Shown piece by piece: positions 13,267 through 30,185 of a stretch of 36,541 bases of DNA. Every line of letters starts with the position of its first letter. Position 1 is the first letter of the stretch. This DNA comes from an uncultured Candidatus Saccharibacteria bacterium (GTDB taxonomy: Bacteria > Patescibacteriota > Minisyncoccia > UBA6257 > UBA9933). The translations under genes and the position numbers were made by a program. Where the stretch lies: NCBI GenBank assembly GCA_964362385.1, contig CAYIEH010000002.1, positions 1 to 36,541 on the forward strand, read 5' to 3'. The notes under the pieces are model-generated. The model had not been told where the DNA came from. It searched no databases and worked only from the letters and a program-made list of their open reading frames with translations.

Positions 13267-13270
13267 TATT

Positions 13271-14053
13271 TTATTTTTCAAATAACAGCGCCGCGCCGAT
13301 AGCTGAAGAAAATTCGCCGATTTTGCTTTTAATAATCGGCGTCTTTTTGCTCAACGGCGACATAATAAATTTTCTGGCTATTTTTTTAACGACCGAAAGC
13401 TTAACTTTATTATTGACAACTCCACCGCCGCCCAAAACAACCGCATCCGGGTCAAAGGCATTAATAACGTTGGCAACCCCAATGCCGATAATTTTACTGC
13501 GGTCGCCGGATTTCAAATAGGCTTTTTTGGCGCCGAGTTGCTCTAATGTTTTATAATTATCTGTTATCATATAGCCGAATTCGCCGGCAGTGCCGTTTTT
13601 ACCTTTATAAATTTTTCCGTTTATTATCAATCCTCCGCCTATACCAGTACCGATGGTTAAAGCCGCGATATTTTTAAAATTTTTTGCCGCGCCTAAAATT
13701 TTTTCGGCGCGCAAAAAACACCTACTATCGTTATCCAGCAACACTTTTTTGGAAAATTCCAAGAAAAATTTCTTAGCGGGCCAATTTTTTAAATAATGGA
13801 TATTGGGAGCTTTAATAAAAATGCCCCTTTTAAAATCAATCGCGCCGGGTAAGCCGACTCCAATGCCATTAAATGATTTTTTATCTTCAAATTTTTTAAT
13901 TTCTCGTTCAAGCGCTTTTAAAAAATCGCGTTTATTATTGGGTGTTTTAATTAAAAATTTATGAAGCGGCGGGAATTTTATGTCGTCAACAATAACTCCT
14001 CTGATTTTGGTGCCTCCGATATCTATGCCAAGATAATTTTTTTTTGTTTTCAT
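13271..14053 (-). CDS. ROK family sugar kinase (glucokinase-like)
   Basis: LGIDIGGTKIRG and GTGIGGGLIINGKIYKGKNGTAGEFG motifs. Start moved to ATG 14053 (MKTKKNYLGIDIGGT), just after the upstream gene stop at 14061. Confidence 0.8.
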   Translation of the reverse strand: MKTKKNYLGIDIGGTKIRGVIVDDIKFPPLHKFLIKTPNNKRDFLKALEREIKKFEDKKSFNGIGVGLPGAIDFKRGIFIKAPNIHYLKNWPAKKFFLEFSKKVLLDNDSRCFLRAEKILGAAKNFKNIAALTIGTGIGGGLIINGKIYKGKNGTAGEFGYMITDNYKTLEQLGAKKAYLKSGDRSKIIGIGVANVINAFDPDAVVLGGGGVVNNKVKLSVVKKIARKFIMSPLSKKTPIIKSKIGEFSSAIGAALLFEK

Positions 14054-14060
14054 TTTATTT

Positions 14061-15884
14061 TTATTGCGAATGTAAAACTTTTTTGACAATATCCCAGTAT
14101 CTTGAATCGTTGTATTTTTCCTTCATATAATACCACCATTCGCTTCCCCATAAATAATATTCGGAAAAACCGGTTTCTTTCGCATATTTTATTGTATCAA
14201 TAAAATATTCAGGGCTAAAGAGTTGAACCTGCCGCTCGTAAGAAAGTTTGGGTATGTCTAATTTATCCCACGGCTCTGCCTGAAGTTCGCTTACGATAAA
14301 CGGCTTTTTTTGGTCGTTAATCAAAAAACGCGTTATTTTCTCTTTGAGTTTAAAGTACGACGGGCCGATTGGATATTCAATATTCCCGACCAGCCAGCCG
14401 ACAGAAGGCGGATAAGTTTTCCTGTACATTGTTGTGCCGAACATATCCCCGTATTCAGCCGCCCTATACCACAGGCCGAATTCTCCGCCGTCAGTCAAAA
14501 GTATCGGTCTGTTATCGAGAGATCTCACCAGAGCTATTTCTTTCTTCACGGAATCAACGCTTCTTGTCGGGCAATTTCCGAAAATAAGAAACGGCTCGTT
14601 TTCAATCTGCCAGACGGAGATTGCCGTATTGTTTTTGTAATGCGCCACTAATTCTTTTAAATAAGCCTTAAGCTGATTTTCTTTCTCGTCTCCGGGAAGA
14701 TTTTGAGCCCAATCAGGAATATGGCACTCTGGCCACCTTGGAGTTTTCAGTCCGACAACCAAAATCGCCATGGCGTTGTTTTCTTTTGTTTTCTGAAGAA
14801 GCCAGTCTGTTTCGGAAAAATCAAATTTGCCTTTTTCTTTTTCAATATCTTCCCAATAAGCGACTAACCTTACTTTTTTAGGATGAAAACCGAACATTAT
14901 TTCCTCATAAGTTTTTTGCCAATCAATCCCTAACTGCCTGCTGAATTTCGCCGAATAAGTAATCCCCCATGTTATATTTCTGTTTAAGTCAATTGGCAGG
15001 CTTCGCGCATAATCAATCAGCCCCAAAAGAAAAATTCCGGAAAAAATCAACAATGCCGCGAATATTTTTCCTGCCAATATCCTCCCGCTAAATTTTTCTT
15101 TCAATAAAATCCAGGCAAAAATAAAAATGACTATGTATTTTATGCTCTGAAGCGCGTCAACTAACGCCGGATTTTGAGAAATTTTTATCGCAAAACTGAC
15201 AAGTAAAGACCCGATTCCGGCGTAAAGTCTGTTGGAAAAATAAAGAAAATAATGCTTTATCTTTGGGACGTCAGTATGATGAAATATTCTTTGCCTTATA
15301 TTTCCGGAAAATAAGAACGCTAAGGCAAGTATGGCGCCCCCAACCTTTATCCAGAAAAATCCCGTAACAAAATTCGTTGTTTCAAAAACTACTTTACTTA
15401 AGACATTTGAAAGGCCGAACAAAAACGAGCTGGCTAAAATTAAAATAATTGATATTTTACGGACTTCTTTTTTTTCAATTGCAAACAAAACCAACGATCC
15501 AAGAATCAAAAGCGTGAAAGCGATGTAATCACCCGACCCCAGCCATGAACTCAAAAAAATGAAACCAAAAACCAGCGTAAATATCGGTGAAATTCCGCCG
15601 ATTATCGGCAATGTCTGAGAAGCCTCGCTTAAATAAAGCGCGTAAATCATAAACACCATTGCCAGAATAAAAATAGCTCCCGCCGCAAGGGCTATAAGGA
15701 TGGTATTTAAAGCTGTTAATTGAAAACCGAAGGGTAAAAAAACTACGGCAAATAATCCTAAAACCCCTATCCAAAATGTGTACGTGAAAGGGTCAAAAAA
15801 TTTACGCTTCAGCAACGCTTTGTCAAAAACCGCGGAAGTGCCTAAAATTATTTGGGCTAATACGGCTATAAAAAGCCAGTTCAT
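14061..15884 (-). CDS. Fusion protein: N-terminal EamA/DMT-like 10-TM domain plus C-terminal clan GH-A glycoside hydrolase domain
   Basis: Residues 1 to about 295 are hydrophobic with EamA-like repeats. The C-terminal part has WQIENEP (acid/base NEP) and FIVSELQAEPW (candidate nucleophile E). Confidence 0.6.
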   Translation of the reverse strand: MNWLFIAVLAQIILGTSAVFDKALLKRKFFDPFTYTFWIGVLGLFAVVFLPFGFQLTALNTILIALAAGAIFILAMVFMIYALYLSEASQTLPIIGGISPIFTLVFGFIFLSSWLGSGDYIAFTLLILGSLVLFAIEKKEVRKISIILILASSFLFGLSNVLSKVVFETTNFVTGFFWIKVGGAILALAFLFSGNIRQRIFHHTDVPKIKHYFLYFSNRLYAGIGSLLVSFAIKISQNPALVDALQSIKYIVIFIFAWILLKEKFSGRILAGKIFAALLIFSGIFLLGLIDYARSLPIDLNRNITWGITYSAKFSRQLGIDWQKTYEEIMFGFHPKKVRLVAYWEDIEKEKGKFDFSETDWLLQKTKENNAMAILVVGLKTPRWPECHIPDWAQNLPGDEKENQLKAYLKELVAHYKNNTAISVWQIENEPFLIFGNCPTRSVDSVKKEIALVRSLDNRPILLTDGGEFGLWYRAAEYGDMFGTTMYRKTYPPSVGWLVGNIEYPIGPSYFKLKEKITRFLINDQKKPFIVSELQAEPWDKLDIPKLSYERQVQLFSPEYFIDTIKYAKETGFSEYYLWGSEWWYYMKEKYNDSRYWDIVKKVLHSQ

Positions 15885-15901
15885 TGCTAATATTTTATCC
15901 T

Positions 15902-15964
15902 GTTAGAAGCAGATTATCAAAGATAATTACCGGAATCCAGATTAAACGAATTCCGGCTTCTAAC
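15902..15964 (-). terminator. Compound hairpin directly downstream of the GH1 gene (terminator-like, no clear U-tract)
   Basis: Outer stem gttagaagc (15902-15910) / gcttctaac (15956-15964). Inner stem ccggaat (15930-15936) / attccgg (15950-15956). Confidence 0.35.
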
Positions 15965-15969
15965 GGGAT

Positions 15970-17355
15970 TTACTCCGTTATGGCGTTGGCTTCAATTATT
16001 TTTTTGTATTCCAAAGCGCTTGGCCGGATTTTTCGCTCCATTGTTTTATAATTCACTTCCACCAGCCCGAATCTAGGCCAAAAACCTTTATCCCATTCAA
16101 AATTATCCAGCAAAGACCAGTAAAAATATCCTCGCACATCTACGCCCTCACTAATCGCCTTATGCACCCACTTCAAGTGATTTTTTATAAACTTCGCTCG
16201 TTTTTCATCTTTTGCATCAGCTAAACCATTTTCAGTTATATAAATTGGCAAGTTTTTTTCCTTCAATTTTTTTAAATTATGATAAATTCCTTCCGGATAA
16301 ATCTCCCAGCCCATATCCGAAATCCATTTATTTGGATTGCGTACGTCAAAAAGTATAAAACGGCCATTAAAAGGGACCACCTTTATTGTATCTAAAAAAT
16401 AATAATTTAGGCCGATAAAATCCTCAAAGCCATCGGTCCATTTTAAATTTCGCCAGTCTCTAAAATATTGCAGAAGTTTAACAGCCACTTTATCCAAGAG
16501 TGATTTTTTATTAAAAGGTAAATGATAATGAATATTGTTTGCGTTTCCAACCATAACTCCAGGCAATTTTTTATGGAGAAGAAGATAGGTTTTTTTATAA
16601 GCAGTAATAAAATTTTTAAGAACTTTATCAGCTTTAAACAAATTTTTCTTTTCTGGAGGAAATTGACCCATAACGTAAGCAAGTCCTGTGTAAATTGTCG
16701 GTTCATTAATGGGTATCCAAAATTTAACTTCTTGGCCGAGTGTTTGTATTATTTTCCCCGCATATCGCAAAAAATATTCAACTGTTTTTTTATTTTCCCA
16801 GCCGCCGATATCCCGTATCCATAAAGGGTTAGTCCAATGCCAAAGCGTCACAAACGGCTCAATGCCGCGTTTACGCAACGCTTTTATAACCTGCCAATAA
16901 TGTTCAATTTCTTTTTCATTAAATTTTCCTTGTTCCGGCTCTATGCGCGACCATTCAATGGAAAAACGATGAGCGTTGTGACCCAATGATTTGGCAATAT
17001 CAAAATCTTCTTCATAACGATTGTAATGGTCGCATGCCCGGCCGGAAATGTAATTTTCTTTTTGAAGCGGATTTGGTCCGCCAGCTTGCGGATTCAAAAT
17101 ATAATCCGGCCAGTTCTTACGATTTGCCATTTGCGATTTGCTATTTGCCGTTTTATGCTCCCACTCACTCCAATCATTATAGTTGTTTCCCTCAACTTGA
17201 TGAGATGAAGTTGCCGCCCCGAAAAAGAATTTTTCGGGGCGAGCCTCGCCCGTTTTTGATGGGCGGGCCGCTCCCCAATAGAACCCCGAAGGATCCCGCC
17301 TTGGCGGGACCAACGGGGCAGGTCCTTTTGGAAATTCAAATTTATTTTCTGTCAT
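15970..17355 (-). CDS. GH1 family beta-glucosidase with two in-frame N-terminal insertions
   Basis: Motifs GAATSSHQVEG, NEP (PINEPTIYT), ITENG and WSLLDNFEW. Start moved to ATG 17355 (MTENKFEFPKG), just after the stop of the upstream AEC gene at 17357. Confidence 0.9.
   Translation of the reverse strand: MTENKFEFPKGPAPLVPPRRDPSGFYWGAARPSKTGEARPEKFFFGAATSSHQVEGNNYNDWSEWEHKTANSKSQMANRKNWPDYILNPQAGGPNPLQKENYISGRACDHYNRYEEDFDIAKSLGHNAHRFSIEWSRIEPEQGKFNEKEIEHYWQVIKALRKRGIEPFVTLWHWTNPLWIRDIGGWENKKTVEYFLRYAGKIIQTLGQEVKFWIPINEPTIYTGLAYVMGQFPPEKKNLFKADKVLKNFITAYKKTYLLLHKKLPGVMVGNANNIHYHLPFNKKSLLDKVAVKLLQYFRDWRNLKWTDGFEDFIGLNYYFLDTIKVVPFNGRFILFDVRNPNKWISDMGWEIYPEGIYHNLKKLKEKNLPIYITENGLADAKDEKRAKFIKNHLKWVHKAISEGVDVRGYFYWSLLDNFEWDKGFWPRFGLVEVNYKTMERKIRPSALEYKKIIEANAITE
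17121..17148. repeat. Heptanucleotide tandem array (NATTTGC x4) inside GH1
   Basis: Units are gatttgc, catttgc, gatttgc, tatttgc. It encodes ANSKSQMANRK. Confidence 0.8.
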
Positions 17356-17356
17356 T

Positions 17357-18265
17357 TTAAAACAAATAAACAATAAGAGGCACCACTATAAATGAAAGAA
17401 TTGTGGATGCCAAAATGACGTTTCCGACCAAAGCGCTGTTTAATTTGAATTTTTCAGAAATCACAAATGTGGTCACCGCCGTTGGCATTGACGCAAGCAA
17501 CGCCGCTACCTGAAAATTGGAAACTTTAAATAAATAAAAATAAACAGCGGCGATAAAAACGGGAAACGCAGCGAGTTTTAAAATTGAAGAACACGCCACC
17601 AACCCCAAATCTTTTTTAAAAAATTTCCCGTAAAGAAATCCGCCGAGCACGAATAAGGCGACTGGAGAAGCGGTGGCGCCCAGCATTAAAAGGGACTTTT
17701 TAAACCCGTCAATTGCGGGAAAATCGATTTTCAGAAAACTAAGCGCGATTCCCGCGACTGTTGAAATTATCAGGGGGTTTTTAACGAATTCAGCCAATTC
17801 TTTTGACAATTTATGCTCCCTGTTATGCCAGTAGCGGATAACGAATATGGAAATTAAAAGAGGAATAATTAAATAAATCGTTCCTATCAACGTCCCTGCC
17901 GGCAAATATCCTTTTCCAAAACTAAGTTCAATCAATGGAAAACCCATATAAATGGTATTGCCTGTTACCGCAGTCAAAAAAATCGCCGCCTTTAAATCTT
18001 TGTTTATTTTTATGACGGAAAGTAAAAGCAATAAAATCAAAGAGAATGACGCAATAGTGAAAAAGCTGAATTTGATGATACGCCAGTTTTCTCCGTTTAA
18101 AAAATCAATATTCCACAAACTCACCGCAATCAAGGCCGGCAACGAAACATAATACGCGAAACTATTCAGGCTTCGGATATCGTTGTCATTGATTATTCCC
18201 TTCTTTCTTAACAGCCACCCGCCAAACACTATAAAAAATATCGGTAATGAAATAAAAATTCCCAT
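17357..18265 (-). CDS. AEC (auxin efflux carrier) family transporter
   Basis: About 10 predicted TM helices, with length and organisation typical of Mem_trans/AEC permeases. I recognise no diagnostic motif beyond the hydrophobicity pattern. Confidence 0.6.
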   Translation of the reverse strand: MGIFISLPIFFIVFGGWLLRKKGIINDNDIRSLNSFAYYVSLPALIAVSLWNIDFLNGENWRIIKFSFFTIASFSLILLLLLSVIKINKDLKAAIFLTAVTGNTIYMGFPLIELSFGKGYLPAGTLIGTIYLIIPLLISIFVIRYWHNREHKLSKELAEFVKNPLIISTVAGIALSFLKIDFPAIDGFKKSLLMLGATASPVALFVLGGFLYGKFFKKDLGLVACSSILKLAAFPVFIAAVYFYLFKVSNFQVAALLASMPTAVTTFVISEKFKLNSALVGNVILASTILSFIVVPLIVYLF

Positions 18266-18309: not shown

Positions 18310-21300
18310 TTAATTTTTCTTAACGCCGAGCCAGATTGAAATGTTATCAATTTTAGTTTCTGTTTCTGCGCCGAATTTATCCGTTCTTTTGAATTCAATG
18401 GATTTTGCTCCCACGCTTTTTTTAATTCCAGAAGTATATTTATCTATTAAATCTCGCATTCCACTTTCCGCTTCCACATATAAAACGATGGTGTCTTTCG
18501 GCTGGTATCCGGCTTGCTTTCGCAAATCCTGAATCATCCTGGTTAATTCTCTGATTTGGCCTTCATCTTTTAATTCTTGAGTGATTACGATGTCTAATTC
18601 AACATCGGTTGCAATATTTTTATCAAAAACAATTTCTTTCACATTCACTTCGTCTTTAACTAAATTCAATAATTCATTTTTATTTCTTAATTCATAATTC
18701 TTAATTCTTAATTCAAATAATGGTTGTCTCACTTTTATTCCCGCTTCCTGCCGTTTTGCCAAAGCTAATTCTGCGAATTTTCTCGCTTTTTTCATTTCTT
18801 CTATTAAAAGTTTTTCTTTTGCGGCTAATTTCTTTATCAGAGGATAATCTTCCAAATGAACGCTTTCTTTCTTGCTCTGCAACAACTTAAACAAGGCTTC
18901 GGAAATAAAAGGCGTAATCGGCGCTATGGCCTTGGAAAATTCGCTTAAAACAAAGTGGGTGGTCGCAATCGCTGATTTTTGGTCCGTACCGCTATTTTTA
19001 AATCGTTCTCGCGAACGCCTGATATACCATATGGACAAATCCTCCACAAAATCTCCTATCGGCTGGCTGGTTTTGTCCAATTCATATTCATTAATTGCCC
19101 CGCTAATCTGATTGATTGTTTCCTGCAACCGCGTCAAAATCCATTTATCCAACACATTTTTACTATTTGCTATTTGCCTTTTGCCGTTAGCTTTCTTGTC
19201 TGTGTATAGTCTATAAAAACTATAAGAATTCCAAAGGCGCAAAATCGTCTTTTTATAAACATCGTCCACGCCTTTTTCCAAAAAATTCAAACTTTCAGCG
19301 CGCACTGCCGGCGATGATAAAAGATAAAGCCGCAAAGCGTCCGCTCCATACCTGTTTACTAATTCCATAGGGTCGGGATAATTTTTGAGGCGCTTGCTCA
19401 TTTTTTGCCCGTCTTCAGCCAAAATAATTCCATTGGCAATCACGTTTTTATAAGCCGGCTTTCCGAATAGCGCAGAAGACAGCACTAAAAGCGTATAAAA
19501 CCACCCCCTTGTCTGATCAACTCCTTCTGCGATAAATTCCGCCGGAAAATTTTTTTCGAATTTCTTTTTATTTTCAAAAGGATAGTGAGACTGACCATAG
19601 GGCATTGAGCCTGATTCAAACCAGCAGTCAAAAACATCCGGCACTCTGCGCATTTCTCCTCCGCAAACGCATTTAAATTCAACCTCGTCTATAAACGGCC
19701 TGTGCAAATCAAGCTCGTAATTATCGTCATGCGGAACCGGGGTAAAATCAAGTTTTCTGACTTCGCCGGTTTTGATAAAATCGTTTTTCTTTCCTTTTAA
19801 TTCAACCGCTTTTTTTGGATTCGCGCCTTCTGCCGCGGCGAATAAATTCCATATCGGATATTCATGGCTTACTATTAAAATATTTTTGCCGGAATAATTT
19901 CTGTCTGTGTCGTACAAAAAATCGCCGACTCTCTTTTTAAGTTCGGTCAAATTCTCGCCCCCGGGCGGAGTTTTATAAAATTTTTCCTCAATAGAATTAA
20001 AGTACTTATGATAATCTCCGGTCCGTTTTCCTTCAAAAATTCCCACGTTAACTTCCATTAATCTGCGGTCTGGAATAACTTTTTCCCTGCTTAATCCGAT
20101 TTTTTCAGCCACTAAAAAAGCCGTTTGTTTCGTTCTCTCAAACTCGGAATAAAATATAAAATCTATATTTCTATCTTTTAATTTTTGCGCCGTTAATATT
20201 ATCTCTTTTCTGCCTTTGTCTGTTAAAGGATATTTATCGCTGGTTTCGATTTTAGAACTTACCCAATTGTCGCCGTTGCTTTTTGCCCAACCGTGGCGCA
20301 TTACAAAATATCTATTGACGGATTTTTCCGTGCTGTTTTTTATGTCTGCTATGGAACCGATAACTTTCAATTTATGACACTGGTCGCATTTCCAAACTGG
20401 AATCGGCGCGCCCCAAAAACGGCTTCTTGAAATTGACCAATCGCGCGCGTCTTTTATCCAATTGCCAAATCTGCCTTTTTGAAGATGCGGCGGTATCCAA
20501 TTGACCCTTTTATTATTTTCTATCAATCCGCCTTTGCCGTTTTTAATTTCAGTGACTTTCACAAACCACGAAGAGGTCGCGTAATTCAAAAGCGGGGTGT
20601 CGCAGCGCCAGCAATGCGGATATGAATGGTTCATTTTCTCTTTTTTGAAAAGCTTATTGTTATGAGCCAACCATTTTATTATTCCAATATCAGTTGCTGC
20701 CGGGTTATCCTTAGGCTTTGCCTGAAGACCGGCGAAATCCGACGCTTCTTTTTTAATACTGCCATCCATTGCAACGTGCTGAATAAACGGCAATTTATAC
20801 TTATTACCCAGTTGCATATCGTCTTCTCCGAACGCCGGAGCAATGTGAACTATTCCAGTTCCTTCTTCCCTATTCACAAAACCTGCCGGATAAATTTTCC
20901 ATCCATTCTCTCTATTTTTTAAGCCCTCGTCTTTGAAATAGTAATCAAATATCGGTCTATATTGTTTTCCAATGATTTCTTTAGCGCTTATGGTTTTAAT
21001 AATTTCATATTCTTTATCCAACATCTCAAGCCTGTTTTTTGCCAAGATAAACCTTCCTTCTCCCTGTTGCTGAAGATTTTTAAACTTTACAACCGCATTT
21101 TCAATATCCGGATTTACCGCCAATGCCACATTGCCCGGCAAAGTCCACGGAGTCGTAGTCCAAGCCAATAAATATGTCGTTGATTGTTTGTCGTTGGTCG
21201 TTGGTTCTATTAATTCCGCTTTCACATAAACCGAAATATCGTCAATTTCTTTATAATTTTGCGTGACCTCAAAGTTTGATAAGGTCGTTTCGCAGCGCGG

Positions 21301-21843
21301 GCAAATATGCATTGATTTATAACCCTCGTAAATCAATCCTTTGTCAAAAAGTTTTTTAAAAACCCAGAGAACGGATTCGGTATAATCCGCGTCCATGGTC
21401 TTATAATCATTTTCCATATCAACCCAACGCCCGATACGGGGAATTATCTTTTTCCAGTCCCCGGCAAAAGAAAGCACGCGGTCGCGCGCCGCTTTATTGA
21501 ATTTAGCCACTCCTATTTTAAAAATGTCTTTTTTGGTTTTAAGCCCAAGCTCTTCTTCAATTATGTTTTCTATCGGAAGACCGTGGCAGTCCCAACCCCA
21601 AACTCTTTCAACTTTCTTTCCTTTCATTATCTGGTATCTGGGAATTGCGTCTTTTATGATATTAGCCAAAATATGGCCATAATGCGGAAGACCAGTGGCA
21701 AAAGGAGGCCCGTCATAAAAAACATAGTCCCCTTTCGGAGCTTTCTTATTTACCGATTTTTCAAAAATTTTTTTCTCCTGCCAGAATTTAAGGACTTTTT
21801 CCTCAATTTCCTTGGGAATAAAGCTTTTTAAATCGTCAAACAT
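18310..21843 (-). CDS. ileS: Isoleucine--tRNA ligase (type-2-like) with an inserted histidine phosphatase domain
   Basis: HIGH motif (PHYGH), KMSKS motif (KMSKRL), editing-domain TTTPWTLPGN, and DVFDCWFESGSMPYGQ. At 1177 aa it is oversized. The RHG...SHE domain occupies about aa 503-708. Confidence 0.9.
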   Translation of the reverse strand: MFDDLKSFIPKEIEEKVLKFWQEKKIFEKSVNKKAPKGDYVFYDGPPFATGLPHYGHILANIIKDAIPRYQIMKGKKVERVWGWDCHGLPIENIIEEELGLKTKKDIFKIGVAKFNKAARDRVLSFAGDWKKIIPRIGRWVDMENDYKTMDADYTESVLWVFKKLFDKGLIYEGYKSMHICPRCETTLSNFEVTQNYKEIDDISVYVKAELIEPTTNDKQSTTYLLAWTTTPWTLPGNVALAVNPDIENAVVKFKNLQQQGEGRFILAKNRLEMLDKEYEIIKTISAKEIIGKQYRPIFDYYFKDEGLKNRENGWKIYPAGFVNREEGTGIVHIAPAFGEDDMQLGNKYKLPFIQHVAMDGSIKKEASDFAGLQAKPKDNPAATDIGIIKWLAHNNKLFKKEKMNHSYPHCWRCDTPLLNYATSSWFVKVTEIKNGKGGLIENNKRVNWIPPHLQKGRFGNWIKDARDWSISRSRFWGAPIPVWKCDQCHKLKVIGSIADIKNSTEKSVNRYFVMRHGWAKSNGDNWVSSKIETSDKYPLTDKGRKEIILTAQKLKDRNIDFIFYSEFERTKQTAFLVAEKIGLSREKVIPDRRLMEVNVGIFEGKRTGDYHKYFNSIEEKFYKTPPGGENLTELKKRVGDFLYDTDRNYSGKNILIVSHEYPIWNLFAAAEGANPKKAVELKGKKNDFIKTGEVRKLDFTPVPHDDNYELDLHRPFIDEVEFKCVCGGEMRRVPDVFDCWFESGSMPYGQSHYPFENKKKFEKNFPAEFIAEGVDQTRGWFYTLLVLSSALFGKPAYKNVIANGIILAEDGQKMSKRLKNYPDPMELVNRYGADALRLYLLSSPAVRAESLNFLEKGVDDVYKKTILRLWNSYSFYRLYTDKKANGKRQIANSKNVLDKWILTRLQETINQISGAINEYELDKTSQPIGDFVEDLSIWYIRRSRERFKNSGTDQKSAIATTHFVLSEFSKAIAPITPFISEALFKLLQSKKESVHLEDYPLIKKLAAKEKLLIEEMKKARKFAELALAKRQEAGIKVRQPLFELRIKNYELRNKNELLNLVKDEVNVKEIVFDKNIATDVELDIVITQELKDEGQIRELTRMIQDLRKQAGYQPKDTIVLYVEAESGMRDLIDKYTSGIKKSVGAKSIEFKRTDKFGAETETKIDNISIWLGVKKN
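18684..18718. repeat. Heptanucleotide tandem array (ttcttaa-like x5) inside the ileS 3' region
   Basis: Units are ttcttaa, ttcataa, ttcttaa, ttcttaa, ttcaaat. It encodes ELRIKNYELRNKN. Confidence 0.8.
19164..19184. repeat. Heptanucleotide tandem array (tatttgc x2 plus cttttgc) inside ileS
   Basis: Same unit family as 17121-17148. It encodes ANGKRQIANSK. Confidence 0.8.
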
Positions 21844-21952: not shown

Positions 21953-22492
21953 TTAAAGTCTCCAATTGAAAAAATGATCCTCCAGATTGATTTCGTTTTT
22001 AATGCTTCCTCTGCCAACCCATTTGACAACTGAATTAACTTTTATTTCGTCATTGCTTACAGGCGTAATATGGACTGTTCTATAAAACTTCACGGGATTG
22101 CCAACCGCATAACTATAAACGCCTGTTGAAGAATCAAATCTGATTGAATTAACGCTGTTGCTCGGACAGTTTGTTTCTGTTGCCTCGGAAATATTCATTG
22201 TTTTATAATCCACTTCATAGCATTTTTCATTGCCGAATCCGTCATTCCAGGGCCGTTTTTGAATTACATTCGCGTCTATGAGATTTTTTACGACTTCAAT
22301 GCCTTCTGAAGCCAGATAATTGGCGACGAACTGGTCGCTTATCACGCTGTTTAAACTGATTGAACGGGAAATTAATCCTAAAAATCCCAAAAATCCGACA
22401 GTCAATAAGCTGATTGCGACTATAAGTTCAACCAGCAAATAGCCGTCTTTATTGTTATCAGATTTAAAAATTAAAAAATTAAGAGATTTCAT
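21953..22492 (-). CDS. Prepilin-type N-terminal cleavage/methylation domain protein (minor pilin)
   Basis: N-terminus KDG-YLLVELIVAISLLTVGFLGF matches the class III signal pattern G/(F,Y)xxxE plus a hydrophobic helix. Confidence 0.65.
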   Translation of the reverse strand: MKSLNFLIFKSDNNKDGYLLVELIVAISLLTVGFLGFLGLISRSISLNSVISDQFVANYLASEGIEVVKNLIDANVIQKRPWNDGFGNEKCYEVDYKTMNISEATETNCPSNSVNSIRFDSSTGVYSYAVGNPVKFYRTVHITPVSNDEIKVNSVVKWVGRGSIKNEINLEDHFFNWRL

Positions 22493-22537
22493 TTTGTTTT
22501 ATGGCGTAATTTTATTAAATAAGAATTTTTTCTGTAA

Positions 22538-23146
22538 TTATTGAACGGTTATCTGACCGCGATTATTGACTTTGATTATTTTTTCAGTCTGGCCCGTGGA
22601 AGATTTTATCTTTACCAGCGCCTCTGCCTTATTCGGATTATTGTCAATAACTATATTGGGATTTGGCGGAATAAAAACAATGTTATTTAAACCCAATTCG
22701 CTAAACTTTACATTTTTATCCAGATAAATCTTTTCAACGCATTCCGCGTAATTATGGCAATCTCCTTTGGAATCTCCGCTGTAAATAAAATCAATATCAG
22801 AACATTGCGGGTCAGAACTCGGAGATAAATCTTTAAAGATAACGATGATATTGGGCAAAGAGAAATTAACGCCATATCCGCAGGGCGCTTCGGACTGGCT
22901 GAAAGCCTCCAGACCAAAAGATTTGGCGCGCTGAAGCGCGCTTATAATTTTTTGCTGGTCCCTGAACAAAAGCAGTTGATTTTCCGATGTGCGGCTATAA
23001 AAAACCAGCCCCGCAGTAAGCAAAAGAGTTATTCCGAAAACCACCAATAACTCCAACAGCGTGAACCCTTTATTGCCGCGCTCAGCGTGGCTATAATCAC
23101 GCTGAGTGTGATTGCCGCAACTTTTATTTCGCAATTTATAGTTCAT
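22538..23146 (-). CDS. Prepilin-type N-terminal cleavage/methylation domain protein (minor pilin) with an unusually long leader
   Basis: NKG-FTLLELLVVFGITLLL motif preceded by a 27-aa leader. Confidence 0.7.
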   Translation of the reverse strand: MNYKLRNKSCGNHTQRDYSHAERGNKGFTLLELLVVFGITLLLTAGLVFYSRTSENQLLLFRDQQKIISALQRAKSFGLEAFSQSEAPCGYGVNFSLPNIIVIFKDLSPSSDPQCSDIDFIYSGDSKGDCHNYAECVEKIYLDKNVKFSELGLNNIVFIPPNPNIVIDNNPNKAEALVKIKSSTGQTEKIIKVNNRGQITVQ

Positions 23147-23149
23147 AAC

Positions 23150-24061
23150 TTAATATAAAATTCCGAAAAATTTGAAATAAAAATCAATAATTTGGAATCC
23201 GAAGAAAAAAGTCAATGCCGCGCCGATTGCCAGAAACGGCCCGAAAGGAACCACGTCTTTCATTGTTTTTTCTTTTTTAGCCAATAAAAACAACGAACTG
23301 ACGGCGCCTGTTATAAAAGACAGAAATAAAATCATCAAAAAATCGGGCCAGCCGAAAACTAAACCCAAAGCTCCCGCTAATTTAAAATCGCCCCATCCCA
23401 TTGCCTTTCCGCGGCTTAAAATTATGATTAATCCGAAAAAAATCATTCCAAACGCCGCGGCGAAAATATGGTTCAGCCATACATTGCTGAAATATCCGAA
23501 AAGAAGATAATAATGGCCAATGAAGGAAGTTGCGAGTTGCGAGTTGCGTGTCGTAAGTGTGATTAGAATAATCCCGCAAATCGCCAATAAAATATTTATC
23601 GCGTCGGGAATGATATAATTGCGGAAATCAATAATAGACAGCAATATAAGCAATAAAAAGACCAACAACCAACAACCAACAACCAACAACTGCAAATAAT
23701 TAAAGCCGTAAGTTGTAAGTCGTAAGTTGCTCGCCTCGCTGAAGCCTTGGCGAAGCAAGTAAGTCAAAGAAAGGGGGACAAAAACAAAAATCAATCCGGT
23801 TAAAATTTCAATCAAAGGATATTGCAAAGACAAACGGCGTTTACAATGGAGGCATCTGCCTTTTTGAATCAAAAAACTCAAAATAGGAACCAACTCATAC
23901 CACGCCAATTGTCTGTGGCAATCGGGACATTTGGAACGGCCGTTTATTGTTTTTAAATTAAAAAACCCGTTGTTTGGCTGATAACGCAAAGAGATAACAT
24001 TTAAAAAACTGCCGATTCCCAGCCCGAAGAGAAAAAGAACGAAAAAATTAAAATAATTCAT
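23150..24061 (-). CDS. pilD: Prepilin peptidase (A24 family, PilD-like)
   Basis: N-terminal CPDC...CLHC zinc motif. Catalytic Asp contexts IIDFRNYIIPD and GWGDFKLAGALG. Confidence 0.85.
   Translation of the reverse strand: MNYFNFFVLFLFGLGIGSFLNVISLRYQPNNGFFNLKTINGRSKCPDCHRQLAWYELVPILSFLIQKGRCLHCKRRLSLQYPLIEILTGLIFVFVPLSLTYLLRQGFSEASNLRLTTYGFNYLQLLVVGCWLLVFLLLILLSIIDFRNYIIPDAINILLAICGIILITLTTRNSQLATSFIGHYYLLFGYFSNVWLNHIFAAAFGMIFFGLIIILSRGKAMGWGDFKLAGALGLVFGWPDFLMILFLSFITGAVSSLFLLAKKEKTMKDVVPFGPFLAIGAALTFFFGFQIIDFYFKFFGILY
23527..23547. repeat. Heptanucleotide tandem array (gagttgc-like x3) inside pilD
   Basis: Units are aagttgc, gagttgc, gagttgc. It encodes TRNSQLATS. Confidence 0.8.
23661..23688. 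repeat. Heptanucleotide tandem array (accaaca x4, perfect) inside pilD
   Basis: Four perfect copies. It encodes part of LLVVGCWLLV. Confidence 0.85.
23707..23727. repeat. Heptanucleotide tandem array (Ngtaagt x3) inside pilD
   Basis: Units are cgtaagt, tgtaagt, cgtaagt. It encodes LRLTTYG. Confidence 0.8.
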
Positions 24062-24171
24062 ATAGAATCCGCTAAGACACCAAATTAAACGTATTCGTTT
24101 ATTCTAAAAACCTTATTGCATTCGCAAGTTATTCGCGTATTAGCGGCCATTAGTGTTTTAGCGAATTCTCT

Positions 24172-24663
24172 TCAGAATTTCACGCAAAGATATTGGGTTC
24201 CTTTACTGCAATCAAGCTGAGGATTGGTACAGCTATAATCCTGATGGTCGCCGTGATAGGACTCGTTCAACGCGGAATGTCCCGCAGTGGAAAGTTTTGC
24301 CGCCAGAATATAACTTTGCTTGTCGCTGGCAGCGCAATAGATATATTCCTGACCTGATACTGGATCACTTGGCACATTGCTGATCCCTAAATTAGAACTT
24401 TCCAAAGCAGTCTTCAGACTGTTCCAATTGCTGCCGGCGTCAGGATAGGCTCTATTATTGGCATTATAAAGAATTTCCAAATAACTTTGGACTTTCTGCA
24501 AATCCGAAATCCTTCTTGAATCATAAGCGCCCGCCCTGAATCCTCTTAAGCCGACCAAAAATACCGAAGACAAAATCGCGATAATGGCGATAACAATCAA
24601 CATTTCAATTAAAGTAAAACCCCGTTTAGAAATCTTTTTAAATTTAATGTCTGTTTTTTTCAT
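24172..24663 (-). CDS. Type IV pilin (candidate major pilin)
   Basis: KRG-FTLIEMLIVIAIIAILSSVFLVGL class III signal. Cys-containing C-terminal region. Confidence 0.8.
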   Translation of the reverse strand: MKKTDIKFKKISKRGFTLIEMLIVIAIIAILSSVFLVGLRGFRAGAYDSRRISDLQKVQSYLEILYNANNRAYPDAGSNWNSLKTALESSNLGISNVPSDPVSGQEYIYCAASDKQSYILAAKLSTAGHSALNESYHGDHQDYSCTNPQLDCSKGTQYLCVKF

Positions 24664-24825
24664 AATATCGGTGAGAATTTTGTTTTTGGTTTTACGCCGT
24701 TATATAAGATTTCTAACGGGGCAAAACCTCTATTTCTCATACATAATAAATTTGTATTATTTTCGACCGTTTACGCTCCCTAAAATGAAGCGGTTATAAA
24801 TTCTGTTTTTAAATTGTGATATCAA

Positions 24826-26040
24826 TTAAACCTTAAATCCCTGAATTAAATTATATATCGGTATCAATATTGAAGCAAACAGCAAACCGATGAAAATGCC
24901 GATAAAAGCAATTACAATCGGCTGGATTAATTCACCCAAACGATTCATTAAATCCTCAACTTCTCTGGTGTAAAAACTTGAAACTTTAAATAAAAGCTCT
25001 TCTAATCTTCCGGTTGCTTCTCCAATAGCAACCATCTGGCCGACAAGAGACGGAAAGTAATCGGAACTTTTATTTAAAGCGCTGGAAAGCAATTCCCCTC
25101 CTCTGACGCTCTCGCTTACGTTATGAAGAATATCCCTGTATATGTAGCTTCCTATTGAATGGGCTGTTATTTCTATCGCTTGAGCTATGGGAATTCCGCC
25201 TTTTATTAAAACACTTAAGGAATCGGCAAATCTGGCGACATACATTCTTTTAAACATTCCTCCTAAAATAGGAACCCTGAATAAAATTTCATCTAAAACA
25301 ATTTTGCCCTCATCGGTTTTAAAATAATCTATGATTAAGAAAATAGCCGGGATGATTATCAAAATAATTGCCCACCACCAATTGACAAAAAAAGTTCCGA
25401 CGCCAAAAATCGTTCTTGTATACCACGGCAAATAAACATTTGATTCTTCAAAAACAGGCTTGATGTTCGGCAAAACAATTGTCACCAAAAGAATCACGAC
25501 TGCCACAAAACCAAGAATCAAAAAAGCCGGGTAAATTAAAGCATTGATTGTTTTTGAACGCCACATTCTTTGTTTTTCCAAATAGTCGGCCAGATAATTC
25601 ACCGCTTCTTCCAATCGTCCGGTAATTTCGGCTGACCTGATCATGCTTATGTAAAATTCAGAAAACACTTTATTCTGGCGTTCCAGCGCTTTTGACAGCG
25701 ACAGCCCGCTGTCAATATCAGAAGCTATTTCAAAAATAACTTCCTGTAAAATTTTGTTTTTAGTCTGCTTGTGAAGATTTTTTAAGGAATCGTTCAGGGG
25801 GACTTTTGATTCAAGAAGCGTGGCAAATTGACGCGTAAAAATCATCAGATCCGTCAAGTTCACTTTTTTAAAAATATTCAAAATATTCCCGTACCAATGG
25901 ACAACTTCGGCGCTTTCCAAGCTTAAAATGAATAAATTATGAGAAGTTAAAATATTAACCGCGCCTTCTTTTGAAGCGGCGGTGATGAAACCAACTTGCA
26001 GTTCCCCGTCTTTGGTTCTTGCTTGATATTTAAACTTCAT
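24826..26040 (-). CDS. pilC: Type IV pilus platform protein PilC (GspF family)
   Basis: Two T2SSF repeats, three TM segments, 404 aa. Confidence 0.85.
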   Translation of the reverse strand: MKFKYQARTKDGELQVGFITAASKEGAVNILTSHNLFILSLESAEVVHWYGNILNIFKKVNLTDLMIFTRQFATLLESKVPLNDSLKNLHKQTKNKILQEVIFEIASDIDSGLSLSKALERQNKVFSEFYISMIRSAEITGRLEEAVNYLADYLEKQRMWRSKTINALIYPAFLILGFVAVVILLVTIVLPNIKPVFEESNVYLPWYTRTIFGVGTFFVNWWWAIILIIIPAIFLIIDYFKTDEGKIVLDEILFRVPILGGMFKRMYVARFADSLSVLIKGGIPIAQAIEITAHSIGSYIYRDILHNVSESVRGGELLSSALNKSSDYFPSLVGQMVAIGEATGRLEELLFKVSSFYTREVEDLMNRLGELIQPIVIAFIGIFIGLLFASILIPIYNLIQGFKV

Positions 26041-26060
26041 AAAGTATTCGCGATTGCTCT

Positions 26061-27134
26061 TTAACTTCTTTCCAATAAAATCCTCAATTCGCTCGGATTT
26101 AATGAATAAAGCTCCGCTTTTTCTAAAGAAATTTCTTTGGTTTTCACCAGAGTTACCAACGAGTGATTCAAATTTATCATTCCTTCCTGCATGGAAGTTT
26201 CAATAACCAGATCAATTTGATAAGTTTTTCTCTCCCGAATGAGATTGCGAATCGCGGGATTGGTAATCATTATTTCGCATGCCGGAATTCTTCCTCCCTC
26301 AACCCGCGGTATCAGACGTTCGGAAATTATTCCCACAAGTGTTGCCGCAAGCTGAGAAGCAATCTGACTTTGCTGCTGAGGCGGAAAACTGTCAATAATT
26401 CTGTCTATGGTTTGAGATGCGGAATTCGTATGCAAGGTGGAAAAAACCAAATGTCCGGTTTCTGCGGCTGTCATCGCGGTGGAAATAGATTCTTGATCCC
26501 TCATTTCACCTATCATAATCACATCGGGGTCCTGCCTTAATAAAGATTTTAAAGCCGAGTGGAAATCCAATGAATCAATTTTTACTTCTCTCTGGGAAAT
26601 AATTGATTTGTCCTGAGTAAAAACATATTCAATCGGATCTTCAATAGTGATGACGTGATCTGTCCTTGCGTGGTTAATTTCGTCAATTAAAGCGGCGAGC
26701 GTTGAAGACTTGCCGTGTCCCGCCGGACCTACCGCCAAAATAAAACCCTGGGAAAGTTTAGTAAAATCATGGAGAATAGGCGGCAAATTCAGTTCCTCAA
26801 TGGTTTTGACCTGAGCCGGAATCAGACGCAACGCCGCAGCCATATAACCCTTCTGATAAAAAACATTGACGCGAAACCGGGCTTTGTCTTCAAAGGTATA
26901 AGAAAAATCAATTTCCTTTTCCTTTAAAAAAATCTCCTTCTGCTCCGGTGAAAGAAGCGATAAAACCAATCCCTCAATCGCCTGAGGAGTTAAAATAGAT
27001 TCTTTTTGAAGTGGAATTAAAATTCCGTCAATGCGGAGCGTTGGATATCTGCCTACCGCAAGATGAAGATCAGAAGCGCTCTGGCGCGCCGCTGTCAGCA
27101 ATAAATCATTAAGTTGTTGTTTATGGTCTGCCAT
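26061..27134 (-). CDS. pilT: Twitching-motility retraction ATPase PilT
   Basis: Walker A GPAGHGKSST, Asp box, Walker B IMIGEMRD, His box TLHTNSA, and no N-terminal GspE_N domain. The track start 27170 is TTG; ATG 27134 (MADHKQQLNDLL) is preferred. Confidence 0.85.
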   Translation of the reverse strand: MADHKQQLNDLLLTAARQSASDLHLAVGRYPTLRIDGILIPLQKESILTPQAIEGLVLSLLSPEQKEIFLKEKEIDFSYTFEDKARFRVNVFYQKGYMAAALRLIPAQVKTIEELNLPPILHDFTKLSQGFILAVGPAGHGKSSTLAALIDEINHARTDHVITIEDPIEYVFTQDKSIISQREVKIDSLDFHSALKSLLRQDPDVIMIGEMRDQESISTAMTAAETGHLVFSTLHTNSASQTIDRIIDSFPPQQQSQIASQLAATLVGIISERLIPRVEGGRIPACEIMITNPAIRNLIRERKTYQIDLVIETSMQEGMINLNHSLVTLVKTKEISLEKAELYSLNPSELRILLERS

Positions 27135-27382
27135 AATTTTATAACCCAGCCGTCCATGCTTTAATGACAAAGTTATTTTTGTTTCTATTCGCTTAGACGG
27201 CTGGGTTATTTAAAATTATGAGCACCCCGCCCTCTATGCGCATTTTTAAAAAGTCCCGTATTGATTCTTATAAAAAATTATAAACCTATATCCTTTCTAA
27301 TTCAATATGTTTAGAGGGCGGGTAATAGGTTTGACACCTAAATTTCCTGCGCCTATCGGCTTGGAAATTTAGGTTAAGCCCT

Positions 27383-29137: not shown

Positions 29138-29211
29138 TATGCCGGCTCATTCAAATTGTGCGAATGAATACAAATAAAATTTCTTTATTAGCATACTGAC
29201 ACCCCGCTTAT

Positions 29212-29505: not shown

Positions 29506-29607
29506 TTTATTGACTTATCCGCCATAGGCGGACCCGCCTTTGGCGGGCAACCAATTACCAAAAAACTTTCTTATTCACTTTCGGTTGCTTGGTTGCTCAT
29601 TAAATTT

Positions 29608-30168: not shown

Positions 30169-30185
30169 AAAATTAATAATTTTGA

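What the first reader, a model, noticed from the sequence alone, without database searches (positions are those of the whole stretch)
19720..20337. Complete histidine-phosphatase (PGM-like) domain inserted inside isoleucyl-tRNA synthetase
About 205 extra residues (about aa 503-708) lie between the conserved ...KVIGSIADIKNS segment and the conserved YELDLHRPFIDE...DVFDCWFESGSMPYGQ segment of IleRS.

These residues carry all hallmark motifs of the histidine phosphatase superfamily, branch 1:
- FVMRHGWAKSN (catalytic RHG)
- YSEFERTKQTA (SxxxRxxQTA)
- LMEVNVGIFEGK (E...G.xEG)
- ILIVSHEYPIW (catalytic SH)

IleRS motifs on both sides are intact (PHYGH, TTPWTLPGN, KMSKRL), so this is a domain insertion and not a gene fusion artefact or frameshift. 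A phosphatase module placed inside the catalytic body near the tRNA 3'-end binding region suggests a coupled activity. Candidates are removal of a 2',3'-cyclic or 3'-phosphate from tRNA ends, hydrolysis of Ap4A-type side products, or a regulatory nucleotide. That functional part is speculation.
Basis: partly seen in the sequence, partly recalled or inferred. Interest (0 to 1): 0.7.

Follow-up and report, generated by a model that had tools for sequence, protein, structure and literature searches.

The report
Active phosphatase domain inside isoleucyl-tRNA synthetase
In a large group of tiny uncultured bacteria (Patescibacteria), the enzyme that loads isoleucine onto tRNA carries a complete phosphatase with an intact active site spliced into one of its surface loops; in sister lineages the same phosphatase is a separate gene touching the synthetase gene, so the two proteins probably work together in a way nobody has described.

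Summary
Window 19720-20337 (-) encodes aa 503-708 of an 1177-aa type-2 IleRS, and those residues are a complete branch-1 histidine phosphatase (Pfam E=2e-27). It is not an artefact: an independent assembly has the same junctions, and 78 of the 80 best-matching GTDB loci carry it in frame at the same site, the distal loop of the CP3 zinc knuckle. It has not decayed: R516/H517/R570/E597/H660 are 97-100% conserved, and the insert is nearly as conserved as the IleRS body.

The new result is that the closest free-standing relatives (~190 aa) are almost always encoded directly upstream of an insert-less ileS, in a conserved argS-hisPhos-ileS-recO neighbourhood. Many insert-bearing genomes keep the same neighbourhood without the separate gene. 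Some close relatives have neither form near ileS, so the module is an accessory.

The domain resembles small phosphomonoesterases (PspA, PhoE, CobC) and lacks the mutase-specific features of dPGM.

The substrate is unknown. I favour an IleRS-dedicated phosphomonoesterase; a housekeeping phosphatase that merely hitch-hikes is the main rival. I found no description in the literature searched.

The parts
18310..21843 (-). ileS: type-2 (eukaryote/archaea-like) isoleucyl-tRNA synthetase with an internal phosphatase domain, 1177 aa
   Evidence: ORF. TIGR00392 scores 867 bits against a cutoff of 621; Pfam finds tRNA-synt_1, Anticodon_1 and DUF5915. Best solved-structure matches are human, T. thermophilus and yeast IleRS.
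20338..21843 (-). IleRS N-terminal part (aa 1-502): first half of the Rossmann fold, CP core, CP1 editing domain, CP2, and the first half of CP3
   Evidence: Aligns to human IleRS residues 15-490. HIGH is PHYGH at 21673-21687; editing motifs are WTTTPWTLPGN at 21130-21162 and GTGIVHIAPAFGEDD at 20818-20862.
20377..20388 (-). First Cys pair of the CP3 zinc knuckle (C486-D-Q-C489)
   Evidence: C486 and C489 are invariant in 72 orthologues. T. thermophilus CP3 carries a zinc motif (PMC7191050).
19720..20337 (-). Inserted segment, aa 503-708 (the finding)
   Evidence: Absent from all solved IleRS structures, where about 7 residues occupy this position. Absent from the insert-less relatives in L001, L003 and L005.
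19798..20307 (-). His_Phos_1 (PF00300) domain core, aa 513-682
   Evidence: Pfam E=2.2e-27. AF2 model of the insert has pLDDT 92.5 and pTM 0.90. Foldseek gives probability 1.0 and TM 0.70-0.78 to PspA, PhoE, CobC, Rv2419c and dPGMs.
20290..20298 (-). R516-H517-G518: phosphate-binding Arg and the nucleophilic His
   Evidence: Conserved in 99%, 100% and 94% of 117 sequences. Invariant in the free-standing relatives.
20134..20136 (-). R570, second phosphate-pocket arginine
   Evidence: 100% conserved. Aligns to GpmA R62.
20053..20055 (-). E597, general acid/base
   Evidence: 97% conserved. Aligns to GpmA E89.
19864..19866 (-). H660, second catalytic histidine
   Evidence: 100% conserved. Aligns to GpmA H184.
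19663..19671 (-). Second Cys pair of the CP3 zinc knuckle (C725-V-C727)
   Evidence: C725 is 98% conserved. Sequence read directly.
18310..19719 (-). IleRS C-terminal part (aa 709-1177): rest of CP3, second half of the Rossmann fold (WFESG, KMSKR at 19390-19404), anticodon-binding domain and type-2 C-terminal domain
   Evidence: Aligns to human IleRS residues 498-887. Pfam finds Anticodon_1 and DUF5915. Motifs read directly.

Best explanation
This IleRS carries a catalytically competent histidine-phosphatase module of the small PhoE/CobC/PspA type, docked in the distal loop of its CP3 zinc knuckle.

The module belongs to one His_Phos subfamily that is a dedicated partner of IleRS in Patescibacteria. 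It occurs either as a ~190-aa protein whose gene abuts or overlaps the start of ileS (argS-hisPhos-ileS-recO) or, as here, inside the IleRS polypeptide. I infer that the two-gene form makes a complex with IleRS and that the insertion makes this association permanent.

The chemistry I infer: H517 attacks a phosphomonoester held by R516, R570 and H660. E597 protonates the leaving group, and the phospho-histidine is then hydrolysed.

Shown:
- the insertion is real and widespread;
- the active site is conserved;
- the operon/insertion relationship exists;
- the domain is phosphatase-like, not mutase-like.

Inferred:
- the activity serves isoleucyl-tRNA formation or its control, for example by removing a phosphomonoester from an adenosine nucleotide or a tRNA terminus, or by sensing a phosphorylated metabolite;
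- the module is not an unrelated housekeeping enzyme.

The substrate is not known.
For: Reality and spread:
- An independent assembly, GCA_041642995.1, is 99% identical at the nucleotide level across the insert and both junctions, with the same neighbouring genes.
- All 120 best homologues (55-64% identity, apart from one 98%-identical copy) carry PF00300 together with the IleRS domains.
- 78 of the 80 best GTDB loci have the insert in frame at the same site. At least 469 matched stretches in GTDB species-representative genomes encode a relative.

Purifying selection:
- R516 99%, H517 100%, N523 97%, R570 100%, E597 97%, H660 100%.
- Mean column identity is 0.65 for the insert and 0.70 for the IleRS body.

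Fold:
- The insert-alone model has pLDDT 92.5. The nearest solved structures are small-molecule phosphomonoesterases and mutases.
- The full-length model has pTM 0.80, with block-mean pLDDT of 87-97 over residues 491-720, covering the domain and both junctions. This is consistent with rigid docking.

Dedicated partnership:
- Eight of eight free-standing relatives examined individually lie directly upstream of an insert-less ileS, from an overlap of up to 19 nt to a gap of about 100 nt; the six read at gene level range from a 19-nt overlap to a 10-nt gap.
- In a metagenome scan seeded only with free-standing members, 72 of 77 informative loci are tied to ileS: 53 adjacent, 3 with one gene between, 16 inserted.
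- No host protein other than IleRS appears among the 150 best representatives.
- The pairing occurs with two IleRS lineages that are only 37% identical, and both pass the ileS equivalog cutoff.
- At least 40 insert-bearing loci keep argS directly upstream and often recO downstream. That is the same neighbourhood without the separate gene.
Against: - No substrate or activity has been measured.
- The adjacency may be inherited synteny of one old operon, not repeated selection. argS is just as constantly upstream (34 of 34).
- Four of six sampled insert-less close relatives have no His_Phos within 3 kb of ileS. IleRS motifs are the same in all three states. So IleRS does not need the module.
- The nearest structural and profile relatives all act on small metabolites. 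The domain is not more basic than the IleRS body: pI is about 9.2 against 8.9.
- I had no model coordinates or PAE, so the position of the phosphatase pocket relative to the synthetic site, the editing site and the tRNA is unknown.
- The window also encodes a CCA-adding enzyme with an HD domain. In E. coli that domain class already supplies tRNA 3'-end phosphoesterase activity (established knowledge).
Confidence: 0.55

Rival explanations
1. Hitch-hiker. The module is a housekeeping small-molecule phosphatase that the cell needs for an unrelated pathway. It sat in the argS-ileS operon and was moved by a local rearrangement into a permissive surface loop of IleRS. It is retained only because the phosphatase itself is needed. 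There is no mechanistic coupling to aminoacylation.
For: - All close structural and profile relatives are metabolite phosphatases or mutases.
- CP3 varies in structure among IleRSs, so it is plausibly a permissive site (PMC7191050).
- IleRS motifs are unchanged with or without the module.
- Close relatives lack the module near ileS.
- Fusions of a His_Phos domain to a nucleic-acid enzyme exist as a curated family: the bifunctional RNase H/acid phosphatase NF005567 is the second-best NCBIfam hit of the insert. From memory, no functional link between its two halves has been established.
Against: - The gene abuts or overlaps ileS in about 70% of free-standing loci (53 of 77) and is tied to ileS in 72 of 77.
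- IleRS is the only host among the best 150 representatives.
- The insertion persists in hundreds of species, and both junctions are modelled with high confidence.
Confidence: 0.28
2. Hidden glycolytic enzyme. The domain is the cofactor-dependent phosphoglycerate mutase reported as missing from some shallow Parcubacteria clades. Annotation overlooks it because the protein is named IleRS.
For: - Jaffe et al. 2020 report PGM as absent in several shallow Parcubacteria clades and suggest divergent forms (PMC7304191).
- The best NCBIfam hit is the short archaeal dPGM model NF038349, at 74 bits for the insert and 102 bits for free-standing P0160.
Against: - Scores are far below the equivalog cutoffs: 74 and 102 bits against 225; pgm_1 20.5 against 81.7.
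- Profile alignment to E. coli GpmA shows that the ~25-residue dPGM cap insertion is missing.
- The mutase substrate residues are not conserved: R90/Y92 become V/I and V, K100 falls on a variable column, R116/R117 become a gap and E, and H-G-N186 becomes H-E-Y or H-G-D.
Confidence: 0.07
3. Protein phosphatase. The domain removes phosphate from IleRS itself or from another translation factor. One example would be counteracting a HipA-like kinase that inactivates aminoacyl-tRNA synthetases.
For: - Some branch-1 members are protein phosphatases (SixA, PGAM5, Sts-1). Kinase toxins that phosphorylate GluRS and TrpRS are known. Both points are established knowledge and were not tested here.
- SixA gives a weak hit (TIGR00249, 31.9 bits).
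- A permanent tether to the protected enzyme would make sense.
Against: - The SixA score is below its cutoff of 74.5.
- No kinase gene turns up consistently in the neighbourhoods read.
- The closest structures are metabolite enzymes.
Confidence: 0.07
4. Artefact or decayed passenger: an assembly chimera, a mis-called fusion of two genes, or a dead domain kept only as a spacer.
For: Nothing positive. A few metagenomic relatives do look chimeric: P0163 has four His_Phos stretches, and P0241 carries an IS200-like transposase plus a GNAT.
Against: - An independent assembly is 99% identical across both junctions.
- 78 GTDB loci carry the insert in frame at the same site.
- The catalytic residues are 97-100% conserved.
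Confidence: 0.01

Closest known systems
Small branch-1 histidine phosphatases: PhoE/YhfR (1H2E, 1EBB), CobC alpha-ribazole phosphatase (6E4B, 6NRU), PspA phosphoserine phosphatase (4IJ5), Rv2419c (4PZ9)
   Same: Same fold (Foldseek probability 1.0, TM 0.70-0.78). Same size class, about 190-210 aa. Same RHG...R...E...H catalytic set.
   Different: Those are free-standing metabolic enzymes. This one is embedded in IleRS or encoded beside it. It scores below every equivalog cutoff (PspA 49.5-54.2 bits against 350; CobC 59.3-62.8 against 162.9). Its substrate is unknown.
Bifunctional RNase H / acid phosphatase (NCBIfam NF005567; Rv2228c-type proteins, recalled from memory)
   Same: A His_Phos_1 domain covalently joined to an enzyme that acts on nucleic acid. 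It is the second-best NCBIfam hit of the insert (71.6 bits).
   Different: That is an end-to-end fusion, not an internal insertion. The partner is RNase H, not an aaRS. The score is below the cutoff of 326.
CP1 editing domain of class Ia synthetases (IleRS, ValRS, LeuRS)
   Same: A hydrolytic domain inserted through two linkers into the Rossmann-fold body, giving the synthetase a second active site.
   Different: CP1 is universal in these enzymes and hydrolyses aminoacyl esters. The phosphatase module is lineage-specific, sits in CP3, and would perform phosphoryl chemistry. CP1 is also present and intact here.
IleRS containing an N-acetyltransferase domain (NCBIfam NF040702, 'ileS_w_GNAT')
   Same: A curated precedent for an IleRS that carries an extra enzymatic domain.
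   Different: The domain family differs, and so does the apparent site: the IleRS-like parts of that model break at about positions 276-494, near CP1. Our protein scores 331 bits against a cutoff of 1999. I found no paper describing it.
Histidine phosphatase domain of the yeast TFIIIC subunit tau55/Tfc7 (recalled from memory, not tested)
   Same: A His_Phos domain built into machinery dedicated to tRNA biology, with an unclear physiological substrate.
   Different: It is eukaryotic, belongs to a transcription factor and not a synthetase, and no homology beyond the superfamily is implied.

Membership tests
Histidine phosphatase superfamily, branch 1 (PF00300) | Profile match above the curated threshold | tested here: met
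   96.5 bits in the whole protein and 100.9 bits on the insert alone, against a cutoff of 21.7.
Histidine phosphatase superfamily, branch 1 (PF00300) | RHG motif with the nucleophilic histidine | tested here: met
   R516-H517-G518 at 20290-20298. H517 is 100% conserved in 117 sequences.
Histidine phosphatase superfamily, branch 1 (PF00300) | Second Arg, second His and an acidic proton donor completing the phosphate pocket | tested here: met
   R570 100%, H660 100%, E597 97%. They align to GpmA R62, H184 and E89.
Histidine phosphatase superfamily, branch 1 (PF00300) | Alpha/beta fold of the superfamily | tested here: met
   AF2 pLDDT 92.5. Foldseek gives 304 PDB matches at E<=0.001, and the 50 listed are all superfamily members.
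Histidine phosphatase superfamily, branch 1 (PF00300) | Phosphatase or mutase activity through a phospho-histidine intermediate | not testable with these tools
   Needs an enzyme assay.
Cofactor-dependent phosphoglycerate mutase (dPGM) | Equivalog-level profile score | tested here: not met
   NF038349 74 bits (cutoff 225). TIGR01258 20.5 bits (cutoff 81.7). PRK14115 16.4 bits (cutoff 305).
Cofactor-dependent phosphoglycerate mutase (dPGM) | Mutase-specific substrate residues and cap insertion (GpmA R90, Y92, K100, R116, R117, N186) | tested here: not met
   hhalign: the 25-column cap is absent and none of these residues is conserved.
Isoleucyl-tRNA synthetase (TIGR00392), type 2 | Equivalog score, HIGH and KMSKS signatures | tested here: met
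   867 bits against a cutoff of 621. PHYGH and KMSKR are present.
Isoleucyl-tRNA synthetase (TIGR00392), type 2 | CP1 editing-site motifs | tested here: met
   WTTTPWTLPGN and GTGIVHIAPAFGEDD are conserved.
Isoleucyl-tRNA synthetase (TIGR00392), type 2 | Type-2 C-terminal domain and closest similarity to eukaryotic, archaeal and Thermus enzymes | tested here: met
   PF19302 DUF5915 is present. Best PDB matches are 9W01 (human), 1ILE and 8WND, well ahead of the type-1 enzyme 1FFY.
Isoleucyl-tRNA synthetase (TIGR00392), type 2 | Aminoacylation of tRNA-Ile | not testable with these tools
   Needs an assay. No second ileS gene is seen in the window.
PspA phosphoserine phosphatase / CobC alpha-ribazole phosphatase | Equivalog-level profile score | tested here: not met
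   PspA 49.5-54.2 bits (cutoff 350). CobC TIGR03162 59.3-62.8 bits (cutoff 162.9).
IleRS with inserted GNAT domain (NF040702) | Model score and presence of a GNAT domain | tested here: not met
   331 bits against a cutoff of 1999. Pfam finds no acetyltransferase in this protein.

The most novel reading that the evidence does not exclude
IleRS in these bacteria has a third catalytic site. The CP3-docked phosphatase, or its operon-encoded equivalent bound at the same place, would act on a phosphorylated adenosine nucleotide or on a phosphorylated tRNA-Ile terminus. Alternatively its phospho-histidine state would report a glycolytic phosphometabolite. Either way, Ile-tRNA synthesis would be licensed, repaired or throttled by a phosphoryl-transfer step. 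That would be a kind of synthetase accessory activity not described for any aaRS.
Probability: 0.3. Interest if true: 0.85.

Novelty: new variant of a known kind. Interest (0 to 1): 0.62.

Why it matters
Aminoacyl-tRNA synthetases are among the most conserved enzymes, and each new catalytic appendage has taught something about translation quality control or regulation. Here an intact phosphatase active site has been kept inside, or immediately beside, IleRS across hundreds of Patescibacteria species. The same protein exists in two-gene and one-gene forms, which is a natural Rosetta-stone pair that predicts a physical complex and gives a simple experimental handle.

If the activity is coupled to aminoacylation, it would be a new class of synthetase accessory function in organisms with minimal genomes.

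If it is not coupled, it is a clear case of an operon neighbour being absorbed into an essential enzyme's surface loop. It would also show how an enzymatic domain can be hidden from metabolic reconstructions of uncultured bacteria, because the protein is named only 'IleRS' or 'class I tRNA ligase family protein'.

Tried and rejected
1. Assembly chimera or frameshift: rejected.
2. Decayed passenger: rejected, because the catalytic residues are 97-100% conserved.
3. Hidden dPGM: tested by profile cutoffs and by residue-level alignment, and judged unlikely.
4. Split ileS gene. Many relatives begin near residue 437-468. The one contig examined shows an ORF open to the contig edge, so this is truncation.
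5. Direction of evolution, operon to insertion or the reverse.
   - A neighbour-joining tree of the IleRS body nests the insert-less clade inside a grade of insert-bearing enzymes (0 of 50 bootstraps for monophyly of insert-bearers). The backbone branches are very short and the method is simple.
   - The domain tree is star-like.
   - No locus carries both copies.
   - Left unresolved.
6. Compensation hypothesis, that IleRS with the module has lost something: HIGH, KMSKS, editing and zinc motifs are the same in all states.
7. RNA-binding hint from charge: the insert's pI of about 9.2 is not distinct from the IleRS body. Uninformative.
8. Literature: four targeted searches found no description. 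A 2026 survey of 96,219 IleRS architectures does not mention a phosphatase.
9. The first attempt at a GTDB scan failed because the alignment was too diverse. A DNA pattern search for the RHG codons was uninformative.
10. Location relative to the tRNA: not obtainable, because model coordinates and PAE are not returned and the papers read give no tRNA contact for the distal loop of CP3.
Full report
**Observation.** The window holds a single uninterrupted ORF at 18310..21843 on the minus strand, 1177 aa. Pfam finds tRNA-synt_1 split in two, His_Phos_1 at aa 513-682 (E=2.2e-27), Anticodon_1 and DUF5915. On the excised segment 19720-20337 alone, His_Phos_1 scores E=9.7e-29. The NCBIfam ileS equivalog scores 867 bits against a cutoff of 621, again as two stretches. 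Against solved IleRS structures, query 503 aligns with human residue 490 and query 712 with 498, so about 208 residues replace a loop of about 7 residues. The enzyme is type 2: its best matches are human, Thermus and yeast IleRS, well ahead of S. aureus type 1.

**Where the insert sits.** The insert lies between two Cys pairs, C486xxC489 and C725xC727. By alignment to Candida IleRS (6LDK) this is the CP3 subdomain (residues 473-534 in that enzyme). In T. thermophilus, CP3 is a zinc-binding unit, and its architecture differs among IleRSs (PMC7191050). Residues at the base of CP3 flank the synthetic site (PMC12077802). None of the papers I read reports a tRNA contact for the distal loop of CP3.

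**Not an artefact and not decayed.**
- An independent NCBI assembly (GCA_041642995.1) has the same gene and the same neighbours. It is 99% identical at the nucleotide level across the insert and both junctions.
- All 120 best homologues carry PF00300 together with the IleRS domains. They are named Wolfebacteria, Niyogibacteria, Parcubacteria or Patescibacteria, and apart from one 98%-identical copy they are 55-64% identical to the query.
- A scan of GTDB species representatives found at least 469 matched stretches that encode a relative. Of the best 80 loci, 78 have the domain in frame at the same position. They come from many Paceibacteria lineages: Wolfe-, Campbell-, Yonath-, Nomura-, Vogel-, Taylor-, Kaiser-, Azam-, Zambryski- and Nealsonbacteria, among others.
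- Across 117 sequences, conservation is R516 99%, H517 100%, N523 97%, R570 100%, E597 97% and H660 100%.
- The insert is almost as conserved as the IleRS body, with mean column identity 0.65 against 0.70.

**Structure.** An AlphaFold2 model of the insert alone is confident (pLDDT 92.5, pTM 0.90). Its Foldseek neighbours are PspA phosphoserine phosphatase, PhoE, CobC, Rv2419c, a riboflavin-pathway histidine phosphatase and dPGMs, at TM 0.70-0.78. The full-length model has pTM 0.80. Block-mean pLDDT is 87-97 over residues 491-720, which covers the domain and both junctions. This fits a fixed docking and argues against a floppy tether.

**The key new result: a separate gene next to ileS.** An exhaustive search of 1.84 billion representative proteins with the insert alone returned three kinds of hit among the best 150: IleRS proteins with the domain at this same site, fragments of such proteins, and free-standing proteins of about 190 aa at 33-44% identity. 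No other host protein appeared. I then looked at where the free-standing proteins are encoded.
- Each one examined lies immediately upstream of an insert-less ileS. P0160, P0170, P0172 and P0200 have gaps of 1-10 nt. GTDB loci L071 and L081 show the same arrangement.
- To avoid ascertainment bias I also started from the IleRS side. Of six insert-less relatives of the L001 enzyme, two have the His_Phos gene overlapping the ileS start by 19 and 4 nt. Four have no His_Phos within 3 kb, and in three of those four ileS follows rpsL-rpsG-fusA.
- A metagenome scan seeded only with free-standing members gave 77 informative loci. In 53 the gene is directly upstream of ileS, in 3 it is upstream with one gene between, in 16 it is inserted, and in 5 there is no ileS in the 0.4-1.6 kb of downstream sequence available. 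argS lies upstream in 34 of 34 loci with room to check.
- The partner IleRS belongs to two lineages that are only 37% identical, and both pass the ileS equivalog cutoff.
- At least 40 insert-bearing GTDB loci keep argS directly upstream of ileS, and about 17 keep recO downstream. The neighbourhood is therefore the same, and the phosphatase coding sequence is either just before ileS or about 1.5 kb further on, inside it.

**Which state is ancestral.** This was not resolved. A neighbour-joining tree of the IleRS body places the insert-less clade inside a grade of insert-bearing enzymes, with short backbone branches. The second IleRS lineage, which always has the upstream gene, is the outgroup. 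The domain tree is star-like. No locus has both copies.

**What kind of enzyme it is.** The domain passes every testable defining feature of branch-1 histidine phosphatases. It does not reach the equivalog threshold of any characterised subfamily, whether dPGM, CobC, PspA, GpmB or SixA. Jaffe et al. 2020 note that PGM seems absent from several shallow Parcubacteria clades (PMC7304191), so I tested the idea that this is a hidden dPGM. In a profile alignment to E. coli GpmA, the ~25-residue mutase cap is missing. The domain therefore looks like a small phosphomonoesterase and not a mutase. A 3'- or 2'-phosphomonoester on a nucleotide or a tRNA end remains possible.

**How it most likely works.**
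- Shown: the insertion is real, widespread and under purifying selection; its active site is intact; and one His_Phos subfamily is tied almost exclusively to ileS, either as an abutting gene or as an internal domain.
- Inferred: the free-standing protein binds IleRS, probably near CP3, and the insertion fixes that complex. H517 forms a phospho-enzyme from a phosphomonoester bound by R516, R570 and H660, with E597 as general acid. The activity serves Ile-tRNA formation or its regulation.
- Confidence: about 0.55 that the module is functionally coupled to IleRS.
- Main rival, about 0.28: a housekeeping phosphatase from the same operon was absorbed into a permissive loop and has no mechanistic link to aminoacylation.
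- Points against obligatory coupling: close relatives lack the module near ileS, and the HIGH, KMSKS, editing and zinc motifs are identical in all three states.
- A point against a tRNA-end repair role: the window encodes a CCA-adding enzyme with an HD domain, and in E. coli that domain class already has 2',3'-cyclic phosphodiesterase and phosphatase activity (established knowledge).

**Novelty.** Database annotations name these proteins 'isoleucine--tRNA ligase' or 'class I tRNA ligase family protein'. Four targeted full-text searches found no description. A 2026 preprint that annotated the domain architectures of 96,219 IleRS sequences does not mention a phosphatase. Synthetases with lineage-specific extra domains are a known phenomenon, and NCBIfam even curates an IleRS with a GNAT domain. 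I therefore rate this as a new variant of a known kind. It is interesting mainly because the active site is intact, the distribution is wide, and the two-gene and one-gene forms make the function directly testable.

Noticed in passing
window 90-1736 (-): A CCA-adding enzyme (PolyA_pol head, RNA-binding region, tRNA_NucTran2_2) with an HD domain. In E. coli that domain class has tRNA 3'-end 2',3'-cyclic phosphodiesterase and phosphatase activity. This bears on whether the IleRS phosphatase would be needed for tRNA-end repair.
   Followed up: partly
window 21953-31862 (-): A type IV pilus gene cluster lies directly upstream of ileS: pilin-like proteins with N_methyl motifs, a prepilin peptidase (A24), a T2SSF platform protein, two T2SSE ATPases, PilN and PilM. 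In this genome ileS has left the argS-ileS-recO neighbourhood seen in many relatives.
   Followed up: partly
window 11905-17373 (-): A sugar-use block downstream of ileS: a glycerate-kinase-like protein (DUF4147+MOFRL), a ROK-family kinase, a 607-aa protein joining an EamA transporter domain to a weak glycosyl-hydrolase (GH10/GH42) match, and a GH1 beta-glucosidase. The transporter-hydrolase fusion is unusual.
   Followed up: no
window 2592-3413 (+): A cluster of four tRNA genes: Arg-TCG, Lys-TTT, Lys-CTT and Gly-GCC. There is no tRNA-Ile in the window.
   Followed up: no
window 33357-35732 (-) and 31918-32808 (+): A 791-aa TraG/VirD4-like coupling-protein ATPase (T4SS-DNA_transf, TraG-D_C) sits in the most GC-rich kilobase of the window (0.465 at 34-35 kb). 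A ComF-like phosphoribosyltransferase with a double zinc ribbon lies nearby. This may be DNA-uptake or mobile-element machinery.
   Followed up: no
L003 4779-7646, L005 2709-5663, L071, L081: A second Patescibacteria IleRS lineage, only 37% identical to this one. Its signature motifs differ (GVHHAWG in place of PHYGH, EMHKS in place of KMSKR), yet it still passes the ileS equivalog cutoff. It always has the free-standing His_Phos gene upstream.
   Followed up: partly
proteins P0163, P0232, P0241 (relatives, not in the window): P0163 has four His_Phos stretches and P0232 has two. P0241 carries an IS200-like transposase inside the editing region and a C-terminal GNAT. These are probably chimeric or misassembled metagenomic ORFs, but tandem duplication cannot be excluded.
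   Followed up: partly
proteins P0171, P0239, P0257, P0046; locus L008 1957-2435: Some insert-bearing IleRS have a further insertion of about 50-160 aa in the editing domain (around query residues 256-300) with no Pfam match. IleRS in this group seems prone to acquiring inserts.
   Followed up: no
proteins P0126, P0159, P0164, P0173 and others; locus L094: Sixteen of about 45 N-truncated relatives begin at query residues 419-468, which looked like a split ileS gene. In the one contig examined the ORF is open to the contig edge, so these are truncated gene calls. Why contigs break there so often is unexplained.
   Followed up: partly
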